A stretch of 42,534 nucleotides of DNA, from IMG/VR virus record IMGVR_UViG_3300045988_044701. One strand, given 5' to 3'. The notes below the pieces were generated by a model that saw nothing but the letters and a program-made list of their open reading frames with translations, made no database searches and was not told the origin of the DNA. This DNA comes from a virus. A program made the translations under genes and the position numbers. Shown here piece after piece: positions 1 to 26,012 of this stretch (positions are counted from its first letter, which is position 1; each line of letters opens with the position of its first letter).

Positions 1-99
1 AGGGCGCTGTACCTCATGCAATGCGCCGTTCGGCAGCTACACGGCTTGTAGAGGGAAAAGCAGAGCCGACAGCTGTACAGGCCATTCTTGGCCATGCCG
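1..99. repeat. 99-bp terminal direct repeat identical to 42436-42534 (circular-assembly overlap / permutation point)
   Basis: Read directly: the same 99 nt (agggcgctgtacctcatgcaatgcgcc...cattcttggccatgccg) occurs at both window ends. Both copies lie in the same frame of one integrase ORF. Confidence 0.93.
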
Positions 100-179
100 A
101 TTTCTCCACAACTGCCGATTATTACACTGGTCATGATACGGATTATCTCAAATCCGAGATGGAGAAATTCAAGAAATAG
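1..179 (+). CDS. int: Tyrosine integrase, C-terminal part (wrap-around continuation of the CDS starting at 41478)
   Basis: The frame from nt 3 reads GAVPHAMRRSAATRLVEGKAEPTAVQAILGHADFSTTADYYTGHDTDYLKSEMEKFKK, stop TAG at 177-179. H-x-x-R, LGH and the Y box are typical of tyrosine recombinases. Confidence 0.9.
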   Translation, partial: GAVPHAMRRSAATRLVEGKAEPTAVQAILGHADFSTTADYYTGHDTDYLKSEMEKFKK

Positions 180-234
180 TCTAACGAAAGTTTAACAATC
201 CGGAAATTTTCAACGTTTTATCGTATTGCGCGTA

Positions 235-282
235 TGCTTCCCAAGCAGTAGGCGGCGGGTTCGAGTCCCGTATCCTGCTCCA
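235..282 (+). other. Partial tRNA (3-prime half only), Gly(CCC)-like; probable attP core
   Basis: Anticodon-loop-like TTCCCAA at 238-244, T arm GCGGG/TTCGAGT/CCCGT, acceptor 3-prime strand ATCCTGC plus T-CCA ending at 282. No D arm or pairing 5-prime acceptor strand lies upstream. Confidence 0.7.
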
Positions 283-292
283 TATTTTAAAG

Positions 293-345
293 AAAATCCC
301 ACGAAACAGCGTTTATTGCTTGTTTGTTTCGTGGGATTTTTGCTT
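293..345 (+). terminator. Rho-independent terminator
   Basis: A 16-bp perfect stem, aaaatcccacgaaaca (293-308) pairing with tgtttcgtgggatttt (325-340), followed by T-rich sequence. Confidence 0.8.
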
Positions 346-402
346 TATTTGCTTTTGAAAAAATGACGATAAAAACTCTAAAAGAATCTAACAATCTAAC
401 GG

Positions 403-741
403 TTAGTCTAACAGATTTTTGATTTTTTTGATAACAAGCTCATACTCTTTCGGATACACCAGCTTTATCGCGTTCATGTGTCTGTCCAGTACCTCCATCA
501 ACCCGCTGAACGGCACAGCGCTTGCAGCCTCTACGAATTCGCTCTGCTGTTCTCGCGGTCTTGTGGAATACTCCATCTGCATGACTGGTTCAGGCTGCGG
601 AGCGGGGCTGTTTTCCCGGCTTTCCGCTTCGCTCAACTCATTTCGCACAGTGCAGAGGGCGGCAAGCTTCTCCACGCTCTGCCAGTCCGTCGAACCGCAT
701 TTCAGCTTGTGAATGTGGGTGTTGATCTCGTCAATGTCCAT
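403..741 (-). CDS. Hypothetical protein (cargo operon, last gene)
   Basis: 112-aa ORF, co-directional and tightly spaced with upstream genes. No motif recognised. Confidence 0.6.
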   Translation of the reverse strand: MDIDEINTHIHKLKCGSTDWQSVEKLAALCTVRNELSEAESRENSPAPQPEPVMQMEYSTRPREQQSEFVEAASAVPFSGLMEVLDRHMNAIKLVYPKEYELVIKKIKNLLD

Positions 742-758
742 GCCTGCCGCCCCCTTTC

Positions 759-1157
759 TTATGCGTTGCGCAAGATGTCAGCGGCCCGCTTGTAGGCGTC
801 ACGCTCTGCACCGGTTGCTTCCTGCATCATGTCCTCAATGTCAGAGATCATACGCTCACGGCCATCCGTGCGGGAGTAATGCCCACGAACATAATGACGG
901 CCTCGGTTTGCGTAGCTATTGCCCCGGTTATAGTTTTCGGTACGTCCGTAGTTGCCGCGCATATCAGCTTCCCACTCACCAGCACGGCTATAATCGCCGT
1001 CCTCCAGCATCATGATCTTGTCGATATTTTTGATGGTGTCGGTCAGCTTATGTACGGTATCCAGCACGCGCTCGTTCAGGCCGTTCTTGGCATCGCGGTT
1101 GTACTCGTCCAGCTCCTCGCAGAGCATTTCACGCAGATCATAGAGATTCTTACTCAT
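759..1157 (-). CDS. Hypothetical protein with a helical N-terminus and an R/Y/G/N-rich low-complexity centre
   Basis: 132-aa ORF. The segment GNYGRTENYNRGNSYANRGRHYVRGHYSR is low complexity. An RBS-like aaggag lies upstream. Confidence 0.6.
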   Translation of the reverse strand: MSKNLYDLREMLCEELDEYNRDAKNGLNERVLDTVHKLTDTIKNIDKIMMLEDGDYSRAGEWEADMRGNYGRTENYNRGNSYANRGRHYVRGHYSRTDGRERMISDIEDMMQEATGAERDAYKRAADILRNA

Positions 1158-1171
1158 GCTGTACTCCTTTC

Positions 1172-1594
1172 TTATGCAACGCGCTCAACGATCAGACTGC
1201 TATTTGCGATGCTGATTGCCTGAGCGCTGGTGTTTTTGAGAGCAACGGTTACGCAGCAGCCACGGGGGACTTCCACGAACACCGCCGTAAAGACGTTGCT
1301 GTACTGATCCACTGCAGCCGGGGTGACGATAGCGGTTGCGCTGTTGAGCGCTTCGCCGCCGACAGCCAGCGCCACAGAGATAGCGCCCACAGTGCCACCG
1401 TTAGGGATGGCGATGTTGCCGCCAAAACTCACTTTGAACAGTGCCTTGCACTGGTTCGTAATCCCACGCAGCGTCACATTGCCAGCACCTGCTCGGTGGT
1501 TGATGCAGTTTGACCCCTTGATAGCTGTTTCGGTCAAGGGAAGATTCTGACCGGCTGCCACGGTCTGGATTGTGGTAGAGGTAAATTCAGCCAT
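1172..1594 (-). CDS. Hypothetical protein, tentatively BclA C-terminal / C1q-TNF-like jelly-roll domain
   Basis: 140-aa ORF. The beta-rich pattern FKVSFGGNI...GAISVALAVGGEAL...VALKNTSAQAISIANSSLIVERVA resembles, from memory, the BclA C-terminal domain, which ends ...SASIIIEKVA. There are no collagen repeats. Confidence 0.45.
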   Translation of the reverse strand: MAEFTSTTIQTVAAGQNLPLTETAIKGSNCINHRAGAGNVTLRGITNQCKALFKVSFGGNIAIPNGGTVGAISVALAVGGEALNSATAIVTPAAVDQYSNVFTAVFVEVPRGCCVTVALKNTSAQAISIANSSLIVERVA

Positions 1595-1808
1595 TATTCG
1601 CGTCCTCCTTTTCTGCGCAGACCCCCGCTTTACTTGCGTAGATGTTTTTCAGCACTTCCATGCAGGAAGCTGAAAAGTCCGGTCGTTCTGTGTCTATCAA
1701 AGTATGCAAAATAGAACTGTATAAACTCAGATCCGTCATGCTCATTTTGTTTTTGTCCATGTTGGCCAGATGGTCAACAAACTGCTGCTTCAAGTCTGTT
1801 ACGGTCAT
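1587..1808 (-). CDS. Hypothetical small protein (73 aa)
   Basis: ATG at 1808 preceded by gaaaggag. The longer track ORF (to 1868) would run through a terminator hairpin. Confidence 0.55.
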   Translation of the reverse strand: MTVTDLKQQFVDHLANMDKNKMSMTDLSLYSSILHTLIDTERPDFSASCMEVLKNIYASKAGVCAEKEDANNG

Positions 1809-1825
1809 TTGAATGCTCCTTTCAT

Positions 1826-1855
1826 AATAAAAACGCCGGGACTGCTGCCCCGGCG
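1826..1855 (-). terminator. Intrinsic terminator splitting the cargo operon
   Basis: On the minus strand, stem cgccggg/cccggcg (1834-1840 with 1849-1855) is followed by a T-run, the complement of the A-run at 1826-1833. Confidence 0.6.
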
Positions 1856-1922
1856 CTCTGGTTTGCAAAATCAGCTCTGGGGCTGAACAGGCTACAAATT
1901 GTAGTCAGTTGCCGTTATTCGG

Positions 1923-2699
1923 TTAGGCGCAACCGTTGCAGCCGCAACCGGTGCCGCAGTTACCGTACTGGTAAGGTGCAGGAACCGGGAAAGCGGGCAC
2001 AGGGCGGGGGTTGTAGTAGGCCAGCTGACCGCTCATGTAGGCCTTGAGCGTTTCGTTCTGGGCTGCCTGAGATGTCGCAAGATGTGCTAAGAACAGCTGC
2101 TGACCCTGCTCAGCAATCTTTGCGTCCTTTGCCTCGATGCGCTGTGCGGTCAGTGCGTCAAGGATGGCGCGGGCGTTCTGGTTCTGGTTGTCGATGATGT
2201 CCCGGGTGGTGTTCTGCACCGTGTTCCGGGTCTCGCAGGACTGGGTGGCCAAATTGTAGTTGACGCCCTGAATGGCAGAGCGGTTCTCGCAGCAGCACTC
2301 CTGCTGCTGCATCTGCATGGCAAACAGCTGCTGCATGAACGCCGCCTGCTGGTTTGCACGGCTGATCTCTGCGGACATAAAGCCGTTATTCACGGTCTGC
2401 TGCACGCCGTTGACAAGCTGCGCCTGCTGGTAGAAGCCATCACACATGCCGTTGTTGATACCATCCATCTTGCGCTCGATGTTGGCAAAATCGGAGGTCA
2501 GGACGTAGCCGTCAACGACACCGGCGCCGGTGTTGCCATTGCCGCCCCAGTTGCCGCCCCAGCCGCCGCAGAAGGCGAACAGGAACAAGATGATGATCCA
2601 CCATGCGCCATCATTGCCAAAGCCAAAGCCGTTGCCGCCGTTAGTGTTTGCGGGTTGAACAGGCATGGTCAGAACCGCAGAATCGGAAGAAAGAGACAT
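1923..2699 (-). CDS. Membrane protein: Gly-rich / TM / Gly-rich N-terminus, Q/N-rich coiled region, Cys-rich C-terminus
   Basis: 258-aa ORF with GGNGFGFGNDGAWWIIILFLFAFCGGWGGNWGGNGN, an internal ECCCE motif, and the C-terminus GNCGTGCGCNGCA. Confidence 0.65.
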   Translation of the reverse strand: MSLSSDSAVLTMPVQPANTNGGNGFGFGNDGAWWIIILFLFAFCGGWGGNWGGNGNTGAGVVDGYVLTSDFANIERKMDGINNGMCDGFYQQAQLVNGVQQTVNNGFMSAEISRANQQAAFMQQLFAMQMQQQECCCENRSAIQGVNYNLATQSCETRNTVQNTTRDIIDNQNQNARAILDALTAQRIEAKDAKIAEQGQQLFLAHLATSQAAQNETLKAYMSGQLAYYNPRPVPAFPVPAPYQYGNCGTGCGCNGCA

Positions 2700-2741
2700 T
2701 TTTGTACTCCTTTCGTGTGTTTTGAATGATTTTTATGCTTG

Positions 2742-2757
2742 AACCGTGGCCACGGTT
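2742..2757. other. Perfect 16-nt palindrome aaccgtggccacggtt (RNA hairpin or protein site)
   Basis: Read directly, in the gap between the 74-aa and 258-aa genes. There is no T-run, so it is not a clear terminator. Confidence 0.5.
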
Positions 2758-2762
2758 ACGAC

Positions 2763-2987
2763 TTAATGGAGGAACTGCTGAAACTGCTGCGCCATCGCCT
2801 GCAGCTGGTTCAGCTGGTTTTGTGACATTTTGCCGGATTGCAGCAGTTTTTGCACCTCTGCTTTAGGGTCGCCTTGAAAGTTTGCACGGAACTGCTGGAA
2901 CTGCTGCATCATCTGGCCAAACTGACCCATAGGGTTTGGCATGGCGGGCATACCGCCGCCTAGTGCATTAAAAAGAGGATTCGCCAT
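2763..2987 (-). CDS. Small Q-rich protein (74 aa)
   Basis: ORF with a biased composition (FQQFQQF, QLNQLQAMAQQFQQF), 2 nt downstream of the preceding gene. Confidence 0.55.
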   Translation of the reverse strand: MANPLFNALGGGMPAMPNPMGQFGQMMQQFQQFRANFQGDPKAEVQKLLQSGKMSQNQLNQLQAMAQQFQQFLH

Positions 2988-2989
2988 AC

Positions 2990-3430
2990 TTATTTGACCT
3001 CCGTTTCAGGCTTTGCAGGCTCTTGCTTCTCAAGTGCCGCACAGCGGGCTGCCAGCGCGTTAAACTCTGCCCGGGTGACAAACTCCACGCCGGGCTGCTG
3101 CGCCGTTTGTGGCGGCGTTTTTGCGGCTGTGGTGCGCTCCTTGTAGTCAAACACCCGGAGAGGAAGCGGCATCCCGCTTGCATCGGTGCTCTTGATGTAA
3201 AATGCGCTGTTTTCGCTGTCCATCAGGAGCACGCTGTTCCCGGCAGCAACCATGTATGCTTTTGCGCCCTCCTCGCCTTGCACCCAAATGATGGACGGCG
3301 TGCCCTGCGTCTGCTGCGCCGTTTGCCCCATCATGGGCTGCTGGTAGGCGTTCTGCCGCAGCTGTGCAAGCTGATCCGGCATTGCCTGCCCATAATAGCC
3401 GGGCTGGTATCCGTATGGAATGTATGGCAT
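2990..3430 (-). CDS. Hypothetical protein with a Y/Q/P-rich N-terminus and a beta-rich core
   Basis: 146-aa ORF: MPYIPYGYQPGYYGQ..., then IIWVQGEEGAKAYMVAAGNSVLLMDSENSAFYIKSTDASGMPLPLRVF. Confidence 0.6.
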   Translation of the reverse strand: MPYIPYGYQPGYYGQAMPDQLAQLRQNAYQQPMMGQTAQQTQGTPSIIWVQGEEGAKAYMVAAGNSVLLMDSENSAFYIKSTDASGMPLPLRVFDYKERTTAAKTPPQTAQQPGVEFVTRAEFNALAARCAALEKQEPAKPETEVK

Positions 3431-3433
3431 CGC

Positions 3434-3811
3434 TTAGTCCTCCTTGTACCAGTAGTAGATCGGGCATTCCGTGCCACTGTCCCAGCTGTCCCACCACTTG
3501 CCATCGATGACGGCCAGAACGTGGCCGGAGCAGCCCAGTACATACACACCGCGGGGGTACTCCCGGGCAAAATCTGCCACGGTGTAACAGGTGGTGCAGT
3601 CTTCCTCCACCAAACGGCGCTTGAACCCGCGCTTTTGGAGGTATGCACCCCATGTGCGGTTGGCGCTGGGCATATCGCCGAGGGCGTAACCGGTGAGCGC
3701 CAGCGCAATATACGCCTGCTCCCAGCTTTGACCGGTGGCCGCAGCTACCGCCCGCACTACGCAGTCCCCGACGCTGCTCCCGCGCGGGTTCGGGTTAAAC
3801 TTGTGCCACAT
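3434..3811 (-). CDS. Hypothetical protein, possible papain-like Cys/His fold (tentative)
   Basis: 125-aa ORF. N-terminal GDCVVRA and C-terminal GHVLAVIDGKWWDSWD are arranged like a Cys...His dyad. First gene of the cargo operon. Confidence 0.5.
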   Translation of the reverse strand: MWHKFNPNPRGSSVGDCVVRAVAAATGQSWEQAYIALALTGYALGDMPSANRTWGAYLQKRGFKRRLVEEDCTTCYTVADFAREYPRGVYVLGCSGHVLAVIDGKWWDSWDSGTECPIYYWYKED

Positions 3812-3856
3812 GGCACCCCCTCCCTTTGCACCCAGTGTACTTTTTTAAACCGCCGT

Positions 3857-3886
3857 GAGTGCCAACGAACGCCAAACGAGTGCCAA
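3857..3886 (-). promoter_or_regulatory. Direct repeat TTGGCACTC x2 (minus-strand reading) upstream of the cargo operon
   Basis: gagtgccaa occurs at 3857-3865 and 3878-3886, 21 bp apart, between the upstream hairpin and the start at 3811. Confidence 0.4.
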
Positions 3887-3929
3887 AAAAGAAAAAAGCG
3901 CCCGCACGGCAGCGGGGCCGCGCAGGCGC
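3881..3929 (-). terminator. Hairpin terminator (minus-strand T-run) upstream of the cargo operon
   Basis: A GC-rich imperfect hairpin at 3898-3929 is flanked by A-runs on the plus strand. On the minus strand it is followed by ttttttcttttttgg. Confidence 0.55.
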
Positions 3930-3937
3930 AAAAAAGG

Positions 3938-3950
3938 TGCTCAATGAGCA
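3938..3950. promoter_or_regulatory. Palindromic operator O1 (tgctca-a-tgagca)
   Basis: Shares the 11-mer gctcaatgagc with O2. The centres are 42 bp apart. Confidence 0.55.
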
Positions 3951-3969
3951 TAAAATTTTGCAAAAAGCC

Positions 3970-3998
3970 TTGACAAATACGCTCAATGAGCGTATACT
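3970..3998 (+). promoter_or_regulatory. Near-consensus sigma-70-type promoter (TTGACA-17-TATACT)
   Basis: ttgaca at 3970-3975, a 17-nt spacer and tatact at 3993-3998, upstream of the plus-strand genes starting at 4045. Confidence 0.7.
3979..3993. promoter_or_regulatory. Palindromic operator O2 (acgctca-a-tgagcgt) inside the promoter spacer
   Basis: A 7-1-7 palindrome occupying the -35/-10 spacer. Confidence 0.6.
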
Positions 3999-4044
3999 GT
4001 AGACAGTGAAAGACACCACACAAAATCAACTGGAGGCAACTAAA

Positions 4045-4218
4045 ATGAAAGATTATTACAGCAGTGCAGCAGCGATGTTCGATGGCGGTTGGAGAAGCAC
4101 TGACAAGGAAGAGTGGATTGCAGAGTATTGCAGCCAGGCTTGTGATGACCCGGCAGACCCCGAAGAGTGGGAAGAGTACGAGAAATATTTCAAAATGTTT
4201 GAAGAGAACGAGCAGTAA
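4045..4218 (+). CDS. Small acidic protein (57 aa)
   Basis: ATG at 4045 lies 8 nt after ggagg. The C-terminus is EEWEEYEKYFKMFEENEQ. The track start at 4006 is a GTG without an RBS. Confidence 0.55.
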   Translation: MKDYYSSAAAMFDGGWRSTDKEEWIAEYCSQACDDPADPEEWEEYEKYFKMFEENEQ

Positions 4219-4220
4219 AT

Positions 4221-4262
4221 AAAAACTCCCCGAGTGATGCGCGAACACCACCCGGGGAATTT
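4221..4262. terminator. Hairpin terminator, copy 1 of a repeated element
   Basis: The 30-nt core ccccgagtgatgcgcgaacaccacccgggg at 4228-4257 is identical to 6057-6086. An A-run lies upstream. Confidence 0.6.
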
Positions 4263-4286
4263 ATCAATCAAAAAAGGAGAATTGCA

Positions 4287-4610
4287 ATGTATAATGCAGC
4301 TGAACTTTTCGTCATGGCATCTGACCCAAAGGCCGTTAAAGAAGTTTTTTTGAACAACGTCACCCTCAGCGTGGAGGACGATGCCTCTGGGTGCGTTGAT
4401 CTGGACGCCCAAAAGACTAAGCTTGAAAATATTTGGAAAATCGCCCACATGCCTTTTAAAGAGATGGTGGAAGAGACAGGCCTCACGAAGACGGCCTTTG
4501 CCAAGATGGCCGGGGTTCCTTATCGTACACTGCAAGGCTGGTGCGGTGAGACAAGAGAGTGCCCTGTATACGTCCGCTTCTTGCTGGCAGAGCATTACGG
4601 ACTGCTGTAA
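4287..4610 (+). CDS. HTH DNA-binding protein
   Basis: 107-aa ORF. The C-terminal TGLTKTAFAKMAGVPYRTLQGWCGETRECPVYVRFLLAEHY resembles the phage HTH pattern (..RTLQ.WE.G.R.P..). Confidence 0.6.
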   Translation: MYNAAELFVMASDPKAVKEVFLNNVTLSVEDDASGCVDLDAQKTKLENIWKIAHMPFKEMVEETGLTKTAFAKMAGVPYRTLQGWCGETRECPVYVRFLLAEHYGLL

Positions 4611-4623
4611 GGGGGGCGATTTT

Positions 4624-5988
4624 ATGCCGAGGCGAGGGCTTGTACCCATGGTATGGATTTTGATAGACCCAGATGGAGGCCGGCACAAAATTTATGATCT
4701 TTCCGAGTGGGCCCGTCAAAACGTGCAGCTTTTCTTTCCTGAGAATCCGCCAGAAAACGCCGCTCAACGGATCTGTATGGGCTTTCAGCCCATAGCAAGA
4801 GGGATGCGAGAGCCGGAAAGGAAGCACAAGGCCAAAACATACAAAAAATGGACGCTGGAGGAGCCGCCAAGACCGCGCACAGACGAAGATACAGAAGATT
4901 CTTTTGAGTCGGCCCGTCCGTGGGTGTCCATCGGAGACCGATTTGGGGCGTTGACGATCATAGACACAGCCCCGCAAAAAGTATACTCTGATGGTGGCGT
5001 TGCAGCCATGTGGAAAGTATACTGCCGTTTTTGTGGCAAGACAAAAGTGATGTCGTATGCAGCCATAAAAAGAGCGGTTTCTTGTGGATGCGTCGCAAGC
5101 ATCCAGAGAAAAATTTTGTGTCAGATCTGCTGGAAGCAATTTTCCGGCACTGCACGCTCAAGATACTGTCCAGAGTGTAAAAAGAAGTATGGAAAAGGAA
5201 GAGCATCGCTTAAATATTTTGAAACGCCCCGTCCAGACTGGGCCGAAGCCATCAAGCCAGAGCTTCCGCCAGAGCCAAAAGATGACCTTTCCGGAAAGAC
5301 TTTTGGAAGCTGGAAAGTGCTTTGCCCCGCAAAAGAGCCGCTTTACTATATATGCAGGTGCGAAAAATGCGGAAGCATAAAAAGCGTTTATCGAAGCTCT
5401 CTTCTTCAGGGGACAAGCACACAGTGCTTGAGCTGTGCCGGAAAAGGTCCTCAGCCCGGGATTTCAAAATCACACTTTAAAAAGGCGTGTGAAAGGTACG
5501 TCGGAAAAGTGACAAACGGCTGGCTTGTGCTGGAAGTGCTTCCAAATGATAAAAAAGGAAAAAGTTTCCCCTGTCGCGCGATATGCCCAAAATGTGGAAA
5601 AGAGACGGTCACAAGGCTGACAAGATTAAGCAAAATCCAGAGCTGTGCAGAGTGCAGCCAAGACCTTGGGAAAAAGGCGAGCGCAATCGCCCCAATCATC
5701 TGTGCAGATGGCTCAAAAATTACGTCAATTCAGTCCCGCATGGACGGAAAAATCAACAAAAATTCTTCTACTGGAGTCAACGGCGTTACAAAGAGAGAAA
5801 ACGGAAAATATTTTGCGTACATCAATTTTAAGCGGAAGCAAATCGGCCTCGGGATGTATGATAAGCTGGAGGACGCAATAGCCGCCCGAAAAAAGGCAGA
5901 AGAGCTGATCTATGCCCCATACCTTGAAGCGCATGAGGGATGGCAGGATGATCTAAAAAAAGCCCTTGAAGAGCTGAAGAAAAAGTAA
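4624..5988 (+). CDS. Three zinc-ribbon repeats plus a C-terminal AP2-like DNA-binding domain
   Basis: ATG at 4624 follows gggggg. A repeat of the form G.W.V......C.C..CG.......L.....SC..C occurs three times. The C-terminal GVTKRENGKYFAYINFKRKQIGLGMYDKLEDAIAARKKAEE is AP2-like. Confidence 0.65.
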   Translation: MPRRGLVPMVWILIDPDGGRHKIYDLSEWARQNVQLFFPENPPENAAQRICMGFQPIARGMREPERKHKAKTYKKWTLEEPPRPRTDEDTEDSFESARPWVSIGDRFGALTIIDTAPQKVYSDGGVAAMWKVYCRFCGKTKVMSYAAIKRAVSCGCVASIQRKILCQICWKQFSGTARSRYCPECKKKYGKGRASLKYFETPRPDWAEAIKPELPPEPKDDLSGKTFGSWKVLCPAKEPLYYICRCEKCGSIKSVYRSSLLQGTSTQCLSCAGKGPQPGISKSHFKKACERYVGKVTNGWLVLEVLPNDKKGKSFPCRAICPKCGKETVTRLTRLSKIQSCAECSQDLGKKASAIAPIICADGSKITSIQSRMDGKINKNSSTGVNGVTKRENGKYFAYINFKRKQIGLGMYDKLEDAIAARKKAEELIYAPYLEAHEGWQDDLKKALEELKKK

Positions 5989-6047: not shown

Positions 6048-6094
6048 AAAAAAATCCCCCGAGTGATGCGCGAACACCACCCGGGGGATTTTTT
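6048..6094. terminator. Bidirectional hairpin terminator, copy 2
   Basis: An A7 run, the stem with core 6057-6086 identical to 4228-4257, then a T6 run. It sits between convergent genes. Confidence 0.7.
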
Positions 6095-6132: not shown

Positions 6133-6520
6133 TCACACGCCCAGCATTTTATCAATGCTTTGCAGGCGATAGCTCACCGCCTGCCGGGAGTAGTGGGTGC
6201 GTGCTGCAATGTCGGCCTGCGGGAGCCGCTCAACGTACCGCAGTAAGGCTATCTTACGGTCTACCCTCCCAAGCGGTGCGCTTTTGATGGCGGCGGTCAT
6301 CTGCTGCCGGTCAAGTCCTTGCAAGCACAGTGGTAGCACTACACGAGCCGCCGCCACAGGCAGCACCGAGCCAGAAAGGCTGCGGCAATTGTCCGGCGTT
6401 GCGCTTAGATACGCATTTTGCCGTATTAAGACCAAAAATTTGCAATTTTCTATCAAAAATGGGCCTTAATGTCCCGATTTTGGTGGCCTTAACAAAATCG
6501 CTCCATGTAGTGCTTGCCAT
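6133..6520 (-). pseudogene. ArpU / sigma-70 region-4-like transcriptional regulator, interrupted by a +1 frameshift
   Basis: ATG at 6520 with an RBS gives MASTTWSDFVKATKIGTLRP. The C-terminal HTH (RKIALLRYVERLPQADIAARTHYSRQAVSYRLQSIDKMLGV) lies in the +1 frame (6133-6456), which otherwise has only a TTG start. The frames could be joined at the A5 run at 6455-6459. Confidence 0.55.
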
Positions 6521-6540: not shown

Positions 6541-6771
6541 TCAAATTTCAACCTTGCCGTTTTCATCGTACACGTCAAACCATTCTTCGCAGTATTCGTG
6601 CACACGCTCACGCAAGCTCTTGATGTACCTGAGAGACTTGCAGGTATATACCTTCATGCCCTGATATTTTCCATCAAGCCCGGTAAAAGTACCGCGATAA
6701 AAGCGCCCCATTCCTTTGGCTTTATAAATGGAACGAGGCTCGCCCATTTCTGTATTTTTGAGATAATACAT
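6541..6771 (-). CDS. Hypothetical protein (76 aa)
   Basis: ORF directly downstream of the holin-like genes. Confidence 0.5.
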   Translation of the reverse strand: MYYLKNTEMGEPRSIYKAKGMGRFYRGTFTGLDGKYQGMKVYTCKSLRYIKSLRERVHEYCEEWFDVYDENGKVEI

Positions 6772-7121: not shown

Positions 7122-7495
7122 GCGCTTTCTCTCCTCTCATACAAAAATTTGTCGATTTCCTCCGCGCTCTGCTCCATTGCTTTGATATTATCACCTGACA
7201 GCTGAGCGCCTAAAACGGCGCGGTTGGAACGCAAAAGGATGGTGATGGCGTTTTCCAGCGCCCCAAAATGCTCCAGATCGCGGCCCAGAGCGGCAGAGTG
7301 GTTAGAGTAGCCCGTCTCAAGCACTCCCACGCGCCTGTCCAGCTCATCCAGCCGCTTGTCCTGTGCGTCGTTGGGAGCCTGTGCCTTTTTGATGTACTTG
7401 TGGATGATGTCCAGCACCTTGTCCAGCGTAATCGCTGCCGCGCACGCACTGCCCAAGATGCCCACAATCCAAATCAAAGCCTCTTTTTCAGTCAT
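7097..7495 (-). CDS. Single-TM membrane protein with a coiled-coil tail (holin / BhlA-like candidate)
   Basis: 132 aa with an N-terminal TM (ALIWIVGILGSACAAAITL). Its start overlaps the endolysin stop as ATGA. Confidence 0.5.
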   Translation of the reverse strand: MTEKEALIWIVGILGSACAAAITLDKVLDIIHKYIKKAQAPNDAQDKRLDELDRRVGVLETGYSNHSAALGRDLEHFGALENAITILLRSNRAVLGAQLSGDNIKAMEQSAEEIDKFLYERRESAWTQQQKS

Positions 7496-8292
7496 GTGCC
7501 CTCCCTGAGCCGCGTCAGGCCCTTTGTCTTGATGATCTTTGGGTAGTTGCGGGTGGTGACGTTCAAGTCTACGTTGCCCATGATACCCGGCACAGAGCCC
7601 TTGCTGGTGTGCTGGTGGGCGTGGTAGATGTAATCCACCTTGGGCGTCTCGCCCGTGTAGTCGGCCAGCCAGACGTCCCAGCGGCCTGCCAGGCGCTGCA
7701 TGTCCAACTCATAGCTGTAACCCGTGTAGGTGTACAGCTGGGCATAGAATCCCATGGCTTCCACCTTTTCCAGCGCATACGCCACAACGTTGGTGAGGTC
7801 GAGGGTGCTCATGGGCTTGAGCTTGTTTTCCTCCACGTCCACCGCAAGGGGCATGGTCAGCTCCTTGCCGTAGACCGCCTGCCGCACAAGAGCAAGCTCT
7901 GCATCGGCCATCGCTTCGCTGGTGGCGTAGGTGTAGTAGTAGACGCCCACGTCCAGCCCAGCGGCCCGGGCGCCGCGGTAGTTGCGCTCAAAGGTCGGGT
8001 CGATGTACAGCCCGTTCGACCGCTTGCTCATCTTCGGATTCGTGGAGACCGTCTTGAGCATGACGCCCTTGTAGCCCGCAGCGGCTACCTGTGCCCAGTC
8101 GATCTGGCCCTGATAGCGGCTCACGTCGATGTATCGGTAAGGCAGCGGCCCGCCCCAGCCGGGGGGAGCGGCGCTCTGGGTGTCCACAGTGGACACCGTA
8201 GAGGAAGTAGGCTGTGCGGTGGAGGTGTCTGCCGCTTCCTTTGCGTGGGCAAGGGCGGAAAAGAGGCGGGAGAGGAAGTTTAGGAGGTTCAT
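7492..8292 (-). CDS. Endolysin, GH25 muramidase with a signal-peptide-like N-terminus
   Basis: YIDVSRYQGQIDWAQVAAAGYKGVMLK is the GH25 signature. The N-terminus MNLLNFLSRLFSALAHA-KEA is followed by an S/T-rich linker. Confidence 0.8.
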   Translation of the reverse strand: MNLLNFLSRLFSALAHAKEAADTSTAQPTSSTVSTVDTQSAAPPGWGGPLPYRYIDVSRYQGQIDWAQVAAAGYKGVMLKTVSTNPKMSKRSNGLYIDPTFERNYRGARAAGLDVGVYYYTYATSEAMADAELALVRQAVYGKELTMPLAVDVEENKLKPMSTLDLTNVVAYALEKVEAMGFYAQLYTYTGYSYELDMQRLAGRWDVWLADYTGETPKVDYIYHAHQHTSKGSVPGIMGNVDLNVTTRNYPKIIKTKGLTRLREGT

Positions 8293-18620: not shown

Positions 18621-18696
18621 TGGTGCCGCTTGCAGGGGTCGAACCTGCAACTACCCGGTTATGAGCCAGGAGCACTGCCAGTTGTGCGAAAGCGGC
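18621..18696 (-). tRNA. tRNA-Met (anticodon CAT)
   Basis: A 76-nt cloverleaf folded by hand: acceptor GCCGCTT/AAGCGGC, D stem GCAC/GTGC, anticodon arm CCTGG-CTCATAA-CCGGG, T arm GCAGG-TTCGACC-CCTGC, and an encoded CCA. It could alternatively be an Ile2 (lysidine) type. Confidence 0.88.
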
Positions 18697-25938: not shown

Positions 25939-26012
25939 GTCGCTTGCAGGACTCGAACCTGCAACCGGCGGTTTTGGAGACCGCTGCTCTACCACTCTTG
26001 AGCTACGGGAAT
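25939..26012 (-). pseudogene. tRNA-Trp(CCA)-like element with a non-pairing acceptor stem (chimeric tRNA relic)
   Basis: The D arm GCTC/GAGC, anticodon arm GCGGT-CTCCAAA-ACCGC and T arm GCAGG-TTCGAGT-CCTGC are intact. The 5-prime ATTCCCG does not pair with the 3-prime AAGCGAC. The last 28 nt match the tRNA-Met 3-prime end at 25 of 28 positions. Confidence 0.55.

What the first reader, a model, noticed from the sequence alone, without database searches (positions are those of the whole stretch)
403..3929. Insulated eight-gene cargo operon beside attP with low-complexity, membrane, Cys-rich and BclA-C/TNF-like proteins
Eight tightly packed minus-strand genes (3811 down to 403) sit between the lysis/moron region and attP, the classical lysogenic-conversion position.

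The operon appears insulated from late read-through by three successive hairpins with minus-strand T-runs (6048-6094, 4221-4262, 3881-3929). An internal terminator at 1826-1855 splits it in two.

The products are unusual for a phage:
- a Cys...His papain-like candidate
- Y/Q/P-rich and Q-rich proteins
- a 258-aa protein with a Gly-rich/TM/Gly-rich head (reminiscent of tiny YjcZ-type sporulation membrane peptides), an ECCCE motif and a CGTGCGCNGCA tail
- a 140-aa beta protein whose C-terminus (SSLIVERVA) resembles the exosporium BclA C-terminal domain
- an R/Y/G/N-rich protein.

Together these look like parts of an extracellular or cell/spore-surface assembly rather than virion or replication functions. 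A TTGGCACTC direct repeat (3857-3886) upstream suggests dedicated regulation, possibly by the adjacent ArpU-like gene.
Basis: partly seen in the sequence, partly recalled or inferred. Interest (0 to 1): 0.7.

Follow-up and report, generated by a model that had tools for sequence, protein, structure and literature searches.

The report
Conserved eight-gene gut-phage accessory module
Eight real genes at the edge of a Faecalibacterium phage form a self-contained module of unknown function that recurs in many gut and rumen phages and seems to build a membrane-anchored protein structure, one part of which folds like a bacterial spore-surface (exosporium) protein.

Summary
Eight minus-strand genes (403-3811) are real: all have Shine-Dalgarno sites and median dN/dS of 0.07-0.35. 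They lie between the lysis cassette and an attP in tRNA-Gly(CCC). Stable terminator hairpins bracket and split the cluster, and helically phased TTGGCAC repeats precede it.

The order g1-g2-g3-g4-(g5)-g6-g7-(g8) is colinear in about 165 loci from gut and rumen Bacillota phages. No gene matches a family of known function.

- **g6:** the AlphaFold2 model (pLDDT 90) is a free-standing TNF/C1q jelly roll. It is closest to the exosporium proteins ExsFA/BxpB and to the BclA C-terminal domain.
- **g4:** a Gly-flanked transmembrane segment, a long helix with an invariant CCC motif, then a Pro-rich and Cys-rich tail.
- **g1:** an invariant Cys-His-Asp set.

The module also sits inside head operons, after tail genes, and in an apparently virulent phage. 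The hosts do not sporulate, and no product has a signal peptide.

Most likely this is an autonomously regulated accessory cassette. It would build a non-enzymatic, membrane-anchored assembly during lytic growth rather than a spore-surface conversion factor. Its function remains unknown.

The parts
235..282 (+). attP core: the 3' 46-48 nt of tRNA-Gly(CCC). It includes the anticodon loop, T arm and acceptor 3' strand.
   Evidence: Integrated copies L169 and L171 carry a full tRNA-Gly(CCC) here. Sequence identity between the phage form and the integrated form ends inside the tRNA. ARAGORN finds no complete tRNA at this place in the window.
288..347 (-). Intrinsic terminator closing the module, downstream of g8.
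   Evidence: RNA fold -24.6 kcal/mol, z -7.7, followed by UUUUCUUU.
403..741 (-). g8: 112 aa, helical ends around a P/Q/E/S-rich centre. Frequently present but the least conserved member.
   Evidence: Found downstream of g7 in 77 of 86 loci by tblastn and in 109 loci by HMM. dN/dS 0.18. No PHROG, Pfam or NCBIfam hit.
759..1157 (-). g7: 132 aa, N- and C-terminal helices around an R/Y/G/N-rich low-complexity centre that includes the motif ...RGHYSR...
   Evidence: phrog_28802, unknown function. Present in 143 loci. 59% R/Y/G/N in residues 55-100. The family profile finds nothing in Pfam or the PDB.
1172..1594 (-). g6: 140 aa, free-standing TNF/C1q-type jelly roll resembling ExsFA/BxpB and the BclA C-terminal domain. 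Conserved PRGCC motif. Probable trimer (inferred).
   Evidence: AlphaFold2 pLDDT 90.1, pTM 0.84. Foldseek against the PDB: 9h3d_E, 7r1m, 8d02, 9h38, 1wck, with TM 0.65-0.75 and E 2e-6 to 8e-5. BFVD: free-standing 130-145 aa gut-phage proteins with TM up to 0.88. phrog_20016 E 1e-59. No Pfam hit.
1587..1808 (-). g5: 73 aa, acidic and helical. Optional member.
   Evidence: Present in 17 of 86 loci and 21 loci by HMM. dN/dS 0.14. The exact sequence is seen on 244 contigs.
1826..1859 (-). Internal terminator or attenuator hairpin between g4 and g5.
   Evidence: -23.1 kcal/mol, z -5.0, followed by UUUUUAUUAU.
1923..2699 (-). g4: 258 aa. An acidic N-tail is followed by Gly-rich / hydrophobic segment (about 33-48) / Gly-rich. 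A long alpha-helical region (about 71-229) carries a nearly invariant CCC motif. The C-terminus has a conserved RPxPxPA[YF] motif and a Cys-rich tail.
   Evidence: AlphaFold2 on 83 diverse sequences: helices 34-44 and 71-229, with pLDDT above 90 for residues 150-220. CCC is present in 75 of 83 sequences. The N-tail has mean K+R 0.34, against 1.17 in the 30 residues after the hydrophobic segment. The family has 1401 clusters at 50% identity. No Foldseek match.
2763..2987 (-). g3: 74 aa, Q-rich small helical protein.
   Evidence: phrog_22984. 23% Q. The exact sequence is seen on at least 1000 contigs. It co-varies with g2 and g4 as an allelic block.
2990..3430 (-). g2: 146 aa. A Y/Q/P-rich N-terminal low-complexity region, a conserved core of about 55 aa, a Pro-rich linker, then a conserved 'YVT+xEF' stretch.
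   Evidence: phrog_21718. Alignment A9. Part of the minimal g2-g4-g6 core. The family profile finds nothing significant in the PDB.
3434..3811 (-). g1: 125 aa candidate Cys-His-Asp enzyme (papain-like peptidase or transglutaminase-like). Accessory first gene.
   Evidence: C17, H97 and D108 are invariant in 24 diverse members. phrog_3754. Relatives stand alone in Bacillus Tsamsa-like phages ('putative peptidase'), GBK2 and Lak phages. No Pfam or PDB sequence match. The fold was not modelled.
3834..3886 (-). Module promoter region. Three phased -35-like repeats: TTGGCACTC at 3878-3886, TTGGCG at 3870-3875, TTGGCACTC at 3857-3865. A -10-like TACACT lies at 3834-3839. The Shine-Dalgarno site is at 3816-3824.
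   Evidence: Direct reading. The motif is unique in the window. The same architecture occurs in relatives. 19 of 80 non-redundant upstream regions have at least 3 phased copies, against 3.2 expected from shuffles, maximum 9. The proximal repeat lies 20 nt from the -10, too far for a standard sigma-70 promoter, so activator or alternative-sigma dependence is inferred.
3883..3929 (-). Upstream insulating terminator: 13-bp GC-rich stem plus U-run.
   Evidence: -29.0 kcal/mol, z -4.5. A hairpin plus T-run in this position recurs in many relatives.
6133..6456 (-). Candidate regulator of the module (inferred): a small sigma-70-region-4-like HTH protein at the end of the lysis operon.
   Evidence: Sigma70_r4_2 E 1e-4, below the Pfam cut-off. 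PHROG 'sigma factor' E 3e-4. A homologue lies upstream on the same strand in 60 of 143 loci. Other small sigma-r4-like genes occupy the same place in Ceridwen and rumen lineages.

Best explanation
This is a real, widely conserved and horizontally mobile phage accessory cassette of seven to eight genes. It has its own terminators and its own unusual promoter. It encodes no recognisable enzyme apart from the optional g1.

Proposed mechanism (inferred):
1. g4 inserts in the cytoplasmic membrane through its single hydrophobic segment. Its short acidic N-tail faces out, and its long helical domain and Pro/Cys-rich tip stay in the cytoplasm.
2. g6, a TNF/C1q-fold protein like ExsFA/BxpB, trimerises and acts as a hub. 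It is expected to bind a proline-rich peptide of a partner, as ExsF binds the exosporium leader peptide. The conserved RPxPxPA[YF] motif of g4 is the best candidate.
3. The low-complexity proteins g2, g3, g7 and g8 add a self-associating matrix.
4. g1, where present, processes or cross-links them.

The cassette is switched on by a dedicated activator or sigma-like factor that acts on the phased TTGGCAC repeats. This most probably happens during lytic development rather than constitutively in the lysogen.

What the assembly achieves is not known. Candidates are protection or exclusion at the envelope, help with release, or coating of debris or particles.

Status of each step:
- Shown: genes, conservation, synteny, terminators, repeats, attP, the fold of g6, and the helix plus hydrophobic segment of g4.
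- Inferred: topology, the g4-g6 contact, trimer formation, timing and function.

My sub-confidences:
- Real autonomous conserved module: about 0.95.
- Membrane-anchored structural assembly: about 0.45.
- Mainly lytic-phase expression: about 0.55.
For: **Real genes.** Ribosome-binding sites and dN/dS 0.07-0.35.

**Conserved synteny.**
- Colinear in 80 IMG/VR loci and 80 genome loci spanning g6 identities of 34-97%.
- The commonest architecture is g1-g2-g3-g4-g6-g7-g8; the minimal one is g2-g4-g6.
- Always found in a phage context.

**Mobility.** The module lies:
- after the lysis genes and before the integrase in most loci;
- between Phage_min_cap2 and Phage_scaffold in 3-4 lineages;
- after tail genes in a phage that carries NrdD/NrdG;
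- after the integrase in Dulem virus 39.

**No enzymes or known systems.** Pfam, NCBIfam and PADLOC are empty, and the PHROGs hits are all 'unknown function'.

**Structure.**
- g6 fold.
- g4 transmembrane segment and helix.
- The charge distribution of g4 favours N-out/C-in.
- None of the other seven proteins has a signal peptide.
- ExsF binds a Pro-rich leader peptide in the cleft between protomers (PMC12357932).
- The g4 Pro motif is invariant or nearly so (P233, P235, P242) across alleles.

**Own regulation.** Terminators lie on both sides. Phased repeats are enriched. A sigma-r4-like gene lies upstream.

**Lytic-phase use.**
- In L165 g1 starts 3 nt before the end of the minor capsid gene, with no terminator between them.
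- The module is present in Ceridwen, whose authors concluded it is virulent (PMC7372960).
- GC content does not differ from the rest of the phage.
Against: - No experiment or multimer model supports any contact between the proteins.
- The g4 model is only moderately confident overall (pLDDT 71.5, pTM 0.35).
- The hydrophobic periodicity of the g4 helix is 3.6, not the 3.5 of a canonical coiled coil.
- The topology rests on a weak charge bias.
- In this window and most relatives the module is insulated from the late operon by strong terminators and sits beside attP. That is what a lysogeny-expressed moron looks like.
- Co-orientation with late genes is weak evidence, because nearly all genes of such phages share one strand.
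- TNF-like domains are also common at phage fibre tips, so a virion role is not excluded.
- The regulator is not identified. The Pfam matches of the sigma-like gene are below threshold.
Confidence: 0.45

Rival explanations
1. Lysogenic-conversion cargo. The prophage expresses the cassette in the lysogen from its own promoter and so changes the host cell surface or spore surface, in the manner of an exosporium nap.
For: - Position between the lysis genes and attP, at the prophage edge in integrated copies.
- Terminators on both sides and a separate promoter region.
- g6 is closest to the exosporium proteins ExsFA/BxpB and to BclA.
- The Cys-, Gln-, Tyr- and Gly-rich composition recalls coat and exosporium proteins.
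- A Cys-His-Asp enzyme could cross-link Gln-rich partners.
Against: - The same module lies inside head operons, after tail genes, and in a phage reported as virulent.
- Faecalibacterium and Butyrivibrio do not sporulate (own knowledge).
- There are no signal peptides and no collagen-like partner in the module.
- There is no compositional anomaly.
- The promoter lacks a properly spaced -35 element, which suggests it is off without an activator.
Confidence: 0.2
2. Virion-associated accessory structure. g6 trimers, g4 rods and their partners decorate the capsid or form an extra fibre or adhesin on the particle.
For: - TNF/C1q-like knobs end many phage fibres: 8ke9, 9eul, and BFVD tail fibres, fibritin and collagen-like fibres.
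- The module lies between the minor capsid and scaffold genes in 3-4 lineages.
- It lies directly after tail genes, including a collagen-repeat protein, in L128.
- It is always co-oriented with structural genes.
Against: - The position varies, and the module is usually outside the structural operon behind terminators.
- A hydrophobic membrane-type segment and several disordered proteins are unusual for a tailed-phage particle.
- Distribution is patchy: the module is absent from the named Faecalibacterium phages in the phage collection.
- g6 has no N-terminal attachment domain.
Confidence: 0.15
3. Superinfection exclusion, or another conflict system, acting at the membrane. In this view the g2-g3-g4 block determines specificity.
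For: - Moron-like position.
- A membrane-anchored component.
- The g2-g3-g4 block exists as deeply diverged alleles (g4 about 40% versus above 85% identity) inside otherwise 85-97% identical modules.
- Repeated invasion by homing endonucleases shows frequent exchange between co-infecting phages.
Against: - No PADLOC hit.
- Known exclusion systems are one or two proteins. Seven to eight mostly structural-looking proteins without nuclease, NTPase or toxin domains are hard to fit.
- Presence in a virulent phage weakens a role in prophage immunity.
Confidence: 0.12
4. Accessory to lysis or release. A late, membrane-anchored complex would modulate holin timing or disrupt an outer envelope layer, with g4 acting like an i-spanin (N-terminal transmembrane segment, helical domain, essential cysteines).
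For: - Most often immediately downstream of holin and endolysin genes.
- g4's architecture of transmembrane segment, long helix and conserved cysteines.
- The products lack signal peptides, like endolysins that wait for the holin.
- Faecalibacterium and Butyrivibrio are Firmicutes that stain Gram-negative and have thin walls (own knowledge).
Against: - No lipoprotein (o-spanin-like) partner. None of the eight N-termini shows a signal peptide, so none can carry a lipobox.
- Monoderm hosts have no outer membrane to fuse.
- The module is separated from the lysis genes by terminators and, in this window, by a divergent unit.
- In some phages it lies far from the lysis genes.
Confidence: 0.08

Closest known systems
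ExsFA/BxpB-BclA nap of the Bacillus cereus-group exosporium, including the ExsF/F-Anchor/F-BclA complex of F-ENA appendages
   Same: g6 has the same TNF/C1q-type jelly roll and nearly the same size as ExsFA/BxpB (TM about 0.75). The partner proteins are made without signal peptides and are rich in Cys. ExsF binds a proline-rich leader peptide between protomers (PMC12357932), and g4 carries a conserved proline-rich motif.
   Different: - Sequence identity is only 10-18%, and there is no Pfam match.
- The module has no collagen-like protein, no exosporium leader, and no ExsY/CotY homologue.
- It is encoded by phages of non-sporulating hosts.
- The stalk candidate is alpha-helical and membrane-anchored.
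- The g4-g6 contact is untested.
TNF-superfamily ligands and C1q-type proteins (type II membrane anchor or stalk plus a trimeric jelly-roll head)
   Same: Taken together, g4 and g6 reproduce the parts list of N-terminal membrane anchor, extended stalk and TNF-fold head. EDA and 4-1BBL are among the Foldseek matches.
   Different: The parts are split over two polypeptides. The charge bias suggests the stalk is cytoplasmic, not extracellular. There is no evidence of common descent or of receptor signalling.
Phage morons or lysogenic-conversion cassettes between the lysis genes and attP (for example the immune-evasion cluster and PVL genes of Staphylococcus aureus prophages)
   Same: Same position in this window and in most relatives. 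The module has its own terminators and promoter region. It is patchily distributed and moves between phage lineages.
   Different: - Eight syntenic genes are conserved across bacterial families.
- The module is also found inside structural operons and in a virulent phage.
- There are no secretion signals and no compositional anomaly.
C1q/TNF-like knobs at the tips of phage and giant-virus fibres (cyanophage A-1(L) short tail fibre CBD, phi812 central spike knob, collagen-like fibres)
   Same: Same fold class in a virus-encoded protein.
   Different: g6 is free-standing at 140 aa, without a shaft or an attachment domain. It is encoded outside the tail module in most phages.

Membership tests
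BclA-C / ExsFA(BxpB) / C1q-TNF jelly-roll proteins (g6) | Compact TNF-type beta jelly-roll fold of about 130-150 residues | tested here: met
   AlphaFold2 pLDDT 90.1. Foldseek TM 0.65-0.75 and probability 1.00 to 9h3d, 7r1m, 8d02, 9h38, 1wck and 1rj8.
BclA-C / ExsFA(BxpB) / C1q-TNF jelly-roll proteins (g6) | Sequence-level membership (a Pfam or NCBIfam model for BclA_C, C1q or TNF) | tested here: not met
   No Pfam or NCBIfam hit even at E up to 1. No PDB sequence hit. Structural alignments show 10-18% identity.
BclA-C / ExsFA(BxpB) / C1q-TNF jelly-roll proteins (g6) | Homotrimer | not testable with these tools
   Only monomer prediction was available.
Exosporium nap system (BclA + ExsFA/BxpB + ExsY/CotY) | A collagen-like glycoprotein with an N-terminal exosporium leader, attached to the ExsFA-type protein | tested here: not met
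   None of the eight proteins has collagen GXY repeats. A collagen-repeat protein occurs only outside the module, in one distant phage, L128.
Exosporium nap system (BclA + ExsFA/BxpB + ExsY/CotY) | Host that forms spores with an exosporium | not testable with these tools
   Hosts named by the sources are Faecalibacterium prausnitzii and Butyrivibrio fibrisolvens. Both are non-sporulating by established knowledge, which argues against membership.
Papain-like cysteine peptidase / transglutaminase-like enzymes (g1) | Conserved catalytic Cys, His and Asp/Asn in that order | tested here: met
   C17, H97 and D108 are invariant in 24 members with 34-53% identity to g1.
Papain-like cysteine peptidase / transglutaminase-like enzymes (g1) | Papain-like alpha+beta fold, or an HMM match to a peptidase or transglutaminase family | tested here: inconclusive
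   There is no Pfam, NCBIfam or PDB sequence match, alone or as a profile. Some depositors call Bacillus-phage homologues 'putative peptidase'.
Moron / lysogenic-conversion cassette | Located between the late (lysis) genes and attP, with its own terminator and promoter | tested here: met
   The promoter is inferred from the conserved -10-like element and the repeats.
Moron / lysogenic-conversion cassette | Expressed from the repressed prophage and changes the host phenotype | not testable with these tools
   No expression data. Occurrence in head operons and in a virulent phage argues that this is at least not the only mode.
Moron / lysogenic-conversion cassette | Composition differs from the rest of the phage (recent foreign origin) | tested here: not met
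   GC is 0.50-0.59 across 1-4000, against 0.40-0.61 elsewhere in the window.
YjcZ-type tiny sporulation membrane peptides (head of g4) | Match to the NCBIfam or TIGRFAM YjcZ / tiny-TM models | tested here: not met
   No NCBIfam or Pfam hit for g4 at E up to 1. The likeness is one of composition only.
Known anti-phage defence systems | Match to any PADLOC model | tested here: not met
   Only chance-level hits, E at or above 0.02.
ArpU-type late regulators (gene 6133-6456) | HMM match to ArpU or a sigma-like late activator | tested here: inconclusive
   Only sub-threshold Sigma70_r4_2 (E 1e-4, 22.3 bits against a cut-off of 25.7) and the PHROG 'sigma factor' (E 3e-4). No ArpU model matched.

The most novel reading that the evidence does not exclude
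Many gut and rumen Firmicute phages carry a portable kit that builds a previously undescribed structure in infected, non-sporulating cells. The structure would resemble an exosporium nap or a TNF ligand. It would consist of a membrane-anchored helical stalk (g4) capped by an ExsFA-like trimer (g6), embedded in a cross-linkable low-complexity matrix (g2, g3, g7, g8, with g1 as processing or cross-linking enzyme), and switched on by its own sigma-like factor. This would be a new class of phage-made envelope or cytoplasmic-face assembly. It would also be evolutionarily linked, by fold, to spore-surface proteins.
Probability: 0.25. Interest if true: 0.85.

Novelty: new variant of a known kind. Interest (0 to 1): 0.6.

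Why it matters
The module is one of the commoner blocks of unknown-function genes in human-gut and rumen phages.
- The g6 search saturated at 8000 scored proteins (clusters at 90% identity), about 7900 or more of them significant.
- The g4 family has 1401 clusters at 50% identity.
- Single exact sequences are seen on 1000 or more contigs.
- It is carried by prophages of Faecalibacterium, a health-associated commensal.

Every component is annotated 'hypothetical'. Three results turn a list of odd ORFs into a testable system: the genes form one conserved, separately regulated unit; one member has the exosporium ExsFA/BclA fold; another is a membrane-anchored helical protein.

If the module builds a structure on or in the infected cell, that would add a new kind of phage-host interface. 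It would also extend the BclA/ExsFA protein class beyond spores. If instead it proves to be a virion decoration or an exclusion device, it would still assign a function to several large PHROG families.

Tried and rejected
- **Family searches.** Pfam, NCBIfam, PADLOC and PHROGs on all eight proteins gave no functional family.
- **PDB sequence searches.** Single sequences (g1, g6) and family profiles (g1, g2, g7) gave nothing significant.
- **Pfam scan of diverse members.** Scanning every diverse member of the g1 and g7 families found nothing consistent.
- **Foldseek on the g4 model.** No match, as expected for one long helix.
- **Megablast of the structural region against phage records.** Only fragmentary faecal-virome contigs matched. 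No named Faecalibacterium phage did.
- **Literature.** Searches on Faecalibacterium prophages, ExsFA/BxpB, F-ENA, and C1q/BclA with prophage found no paper describing this module.
- **Rfam on the region.** No RNA family matched. The attP tRNA fragment is too short to score.
- **The repeats as a general late promoter.** Rejected, because the motif occurs nowhere else in the window.
- **The divergent 107-aa HTH gene as a universal partner.** Rejected. It is found in only about 26 Faecalibacterium-type loci.
- **A small integrated virus or satellite.** Rejected. The module has no replication, packaging or capsid-size genes and is always inside a tailed-phage genome.
- **Chance ORFs.** Rejected on dN/dS and synteny.
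- **Canonical coiled coil for g4.** Not supported. The hydrophobic periodicity is 3.6, not 3.5.

Full report
**1. What the window is**

The window is a circularly permuted genome of a temperate siphovirus-type phage. Reading along the minus strand it carries these genes:
- antirepressor
- DNA methyltransferase
- large terminase
- SPP1-type portal
- Mu-F-like head protein
- tape measure and tail proteins
- a GH25 endolysin (7492-8292)
- two holin-like genes

The C-terminus of a tyrosine integrase ends at position 179 on the plus strand. The integrase and a 195-aa HTH_3 repressor continue from the far end of the window.

The host is Faecalibacterium prausnitzii. A 97%-identical g6 protein carries that NCBI name and occurs on contigs up to 1.2 Mb.

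Contigs encoding the identical g6 exist in two forms:
- **Phage form:** module, then integrase, then repressor (L170, L172).
- **Integrated form:** module, then a full tRNA-Gly(CCC), then host PHP, TSCPD, ClpB, GroES and GroEL (L169, L171).

Identity between the two forms stops inside the tRNA. attP is therefore the 3' 46-48 nt of tRNA-Gly(CCC), at window positions of about 235-282. The eight genes lie at the very edge of the prophage.

Yes. The eight minus-strand ORFs are at the stated coordinates. The only correction is that g5 most likely starts at the ATG at 1808, which has a Shine-Dalgarno site, not at the TTG at 1868.

Each gene has a GGAGG-type ribosome-binding site. Each is under purifying selection, with median dN/dS 0.07-0.35.

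I found a fifth hairpin that terminates the module downstream of g8.

The two outer hairpins (6049-6094 and 4223-4262) are near-identical structures of A-tract, stem and U-tract. They lie around a plus-strand insertion. That insertion carries:
- a strong TTGACA-17-TATACT promoter (3970-3998)
- a 57-aa acidic protein
- a 107-aa weak HTH protein
- an HNH-AP2 homing endonuclease, which is present or absent among otherwise identical relatives

The compositional claims and the ECCCE and CGTGCGCNGCA motifs are correct.

**3. The module outside this genome**

DNA and protein searches of phage records found the same gene order in faecal-virome contigs, in lemur-gut 'Dulem' viruses and in the isolated Butyrivibrio phage Ceridwen. 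A pattern scan with a g6 alignment returned 80 IMG/VR loci and 80 loci from species-representative genomes.

Iterative HMMs assign g1-g8 in these loci. The order g1-g2-g3-g4-(g5)-g6-g7-(g8) is colinear almost everywhere. The commonest architecture is g1-g2-g3-g4-g6-g7-g8 (53 loci). A minimal g2-g4-g6 form, followed by a 201-aa g7-like protein, occurs in phages of uncultured Bacilli.

The named hosts are gut and rumen Bacillota: Oscillospiraceae, Lachnospiraceae, Acutalibacteraceae, uncultured Bacilli and Selenomonadaceae. A few other names sit on phage-sized contigs of about 40 kb and look like binning errors.

The families are large:
- The g6 search saturated at 8000 scored proteins (clusters at 90% identity), at least about 7900 of them significant.
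- g4 has 1401 clusters at 50% identity.
- The exact g3 sequence occurs on at least 1000 contigs.

Inside closely related modules the g2-g3-g4 block occurs as two deeply diverged alleles (g4 about 40% versus above 85% identity). Meanwhile g1 and g5-g8 stay at 85-97%. HNH/NUMOD4-type endonuclease genes have inserted independently between g3 and g4 and between g6 and g7.

**4. Genomic position**

Among about 80 diverse loci, the nearest upstream genes are mostly lysis proteins:
- PG_binding_1: 9
- Phage_holin_4_1: 5
- GH25: 5
- Amidase_2: 4
- CHAP: 4

The nearest downstream genes are most often integrases: 16 in the diverse set. Among the flanking ORFs of all 165 loci, most of them the 80 IMG/VR loci, there are 50 tyrosine and 12 serine recombinases.

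However, the position is not fixed:
- In 3-4 lineages the module lies between Phage_min_cap2 and the scaffold and major capsid genes.
- In one of these (L165), g1 begins 3 nt before the end of the minor capsid gene. No terminator lies between them, and a strong one follows g7.
- In Dulem virus 39 the module follows the integrase.
- In an uncultured-Bacilli phage that encodes NrdD/NrdG, the minimal form directly follows tail genes.
- In Ceridwen it lies between the lysin and the early genes. The authors saw only lytic growth, annotated no integrase, and concluded the phage is virulent.

So the module is a mobile cassette. It is not tied to attP and not confined to temperate phages.

**5. The proteins**

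No protein matches Pfam, NCBIfam or PADLOC. Six of the eight match PHROGs of unknown function.

*g6.* A 60-sequence alignment gave an AlphaFold2 model with pLDDT 90.1 that is all beta strand. The best PDB matches are ExsF/ExsFA/BxpB (TM 0.75, E about 2e-6). F-BclA and BclA C-terminal domains follow, then the TNF-family members EDA and 4-1BBL, and C1q. Phage fibre knobs rank lower. In BFVD the best matches are free-standing 130-145 aa proteins of uncultured gut phages, some auto-named 'BclA protein'. Sequence-level membership is not met.

*g4.* An 83-sequence alignment shows the nearly invariant columns W33, G46, C135-C136-C137, Q214, P233, P235 and C252, and the invariant P242. The model has a short helix at residues 34-44 and one long helix at 71-229, with pLDDT above 90 for 150-220. 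The ends are disordered.

The N-tail is acidic and almost free of Lys and Arg. There are 0.34 per sequence, against 1.17 in the 30 residues after the hydrophobic segment. This weakly favours an N-out/C-in orientation. The other seven proteins have no signal peptides, which agrees with that orientation. Hydrophobic periodicity is 3.6, so a canonical coiled coil is not shown.

*g1.* C17, H97 and D108 are invariant. Homologues also occur alone in Bacillus Tsamsa-like phages, Geobacillus phage GBK2 and Lak megaphages, and g1 is missing from the minimal module. It is therefore an accessory enzyme. Its fold was not modelled.

*g2, g3, g7, g8.* These combine short conserved segments with low-complexity regions rich in Y/Q/P, Q, R/Y/G/N or P/Q/E.

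**6. Regulation**

Immediately upstream of g1 the window has, in order:
- a GC-rich terminator
- three -35-like repeats (TTGGCAC, TTGGCG, TTGGCAC) spaced 11 and 10 bp apart
- a -10-like TACACT, 20 nt from the proximal repeat
- the Shine-Dalgarno site

Relatives keep the same layout with different repeat sequences: TTGTCC/TTGTAC/TTGTCT, TTGGCCC three times, or GGCACA. At least three phased copies occur in 19 of 80 non-redundant upstream regions. Shuffles give 3.2 on average and 9 at most. The motif is unique in the window, so this is not the general late promoter.

A small protein with sub-threshold similarity to sigma-70 region 4 lies upstream on the same strand in 60 of 143 loci. Other small sigma-r4-like genes occupy that place in Ceridwen and in rumen lineages. 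I infer an activator-dependent or alternative-sigma-dependent promoter. The identity of the factor is not shown, and 'ArpU-like' is not supported by any model.

**7. Interpretation**

The shown facts describe a conserved, mobile, separately regulated cassette. It has no recognisable enzymes except g1, one membrane-anchored helical protein, one ExsFA-like jelly roll, and several disordered partners.

The most economical mechanism is a self-assembling structure anchored on the cytoplasmic membrane, with g6 as a trimeric hub. ExsF binds the proline-rich exosporium leader of F-Anchor and BclA in the clefts between protomers (PMC12357932). The conserved RPxPxPA[YF] motif of g4 is therefore a natural candidate ligand, but this is untested.

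Three observations favour use during lytic growth:
- the head-operon and tail-adjacent locations
- presence in a virulent phage
- the sigma-like gene at the end of the lysis operon

The terminators and the attP-proximal position in most temperate relatives keep lysogenic expression possible.

The spore-surface idea fits the fold and the composition but not the hosts. A virion role, an exclusion role and a lysis-accessory role remain open. I give them lower weights, for the reasons listed under the rival explanations.

**8. Novelty**

No paper in the searchable library describes this module. As a phage accessory cassette beside attP it belongs to a known kind. Its content, an ExsFA/BclA-fold protein together with a membrane-anchored helical Cys-rich protein and low-complexity partners, conserved across bacterial families, has no described counterpart.

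I file it as a new variant of a known kind. I give a 0.25 chance that it is a new type of phage-built cellular structure.

Noticed in passing
window 25946-26005 (-): Rfam scores a partial tRNA here (41.7 bits, model positions 8-63) that ARAGORN does not call. About 64 nt are 92% identical to tRNA-Trp genes of Mycobacterium and Gordonia phages. This could be a truncated or unusual tRNA near the methyltransferase and terminase region.
   Followed up: no
window 18621-18696 (-): A complete tRNA-Met(CAT) lies inside the structural gene region.
   Followed up: no
window 4621-5988 (+), with hairpins at 4223-4262 and 6049-6094: An HNH-AP2 homing endonuclease is present in some otherwise identical relatives and absent in others (L170 and L171 versus L169 and L172). 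It lies between two near-identical hairpins of A-tract, stem and U-tract that look bidirectional.
   Followed up: partly
L007 8252-8794; L001 9738-10289; L116 6716-7393; L014 10458-11282: Independent HNH/NUMOD4-type endonuclease genes are inserted inside the module in relatives, between g3 and g4 or between g6 and g7. The module is a homing hot-spot, which implies frequent exchange between co-infecting phages.
   Followed up: partly
window 3970-4610 (+): A near-consensus sigma-70 promoter (TTGACA-17-TATACT) drives a unit divergent from the module. It encodes a 57-aa acidic protein and a 107-aa weak HTH_3 protein. The HTH gene accompanies the module, in opposite orientation, in only about 26 Faecalibacterium-type loci.
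   Followed up: partly
L009-L016 versus L017-L033 (IMG/VR relatives), equivalent to window 1923-3430: The g2-g3-g4 block exists as two deeply diverged alleles (g4 about 40% versus above 85% identity). The modules around them have g1 and g5-g8 at 85-97% identity. This looks like a swappable, co-evolving sub-cassette.
   Followed up: partly
L170 1779-2033, equivalent to window 6541-6771: Relatives carry an 84-aa protein with the Pfam 'Sequestin' domain (PF21825) between the holins and the sigma-like gene. The 76-aa protein at that place in the window has no Pfam hit.
   Followed up: no
L128 1350-11340: A phage of an uncultured Bacilli host, which encodes NrdD/NrdG, carries the minimal module (g2, g4, g6, a g7-like protein) directly after tail genes. 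These include a 650-aa collagen-repeat protein. A 107-aa IrrE/M78-like protein follows the module.
   Followed up: partly
L169 3710-3782: ARAGORN reports a tRNA-like gene with an undetermined anticodon in an integrated relative. It lies in the gap where the window has the sigma-like gene region.
   Followed up: no
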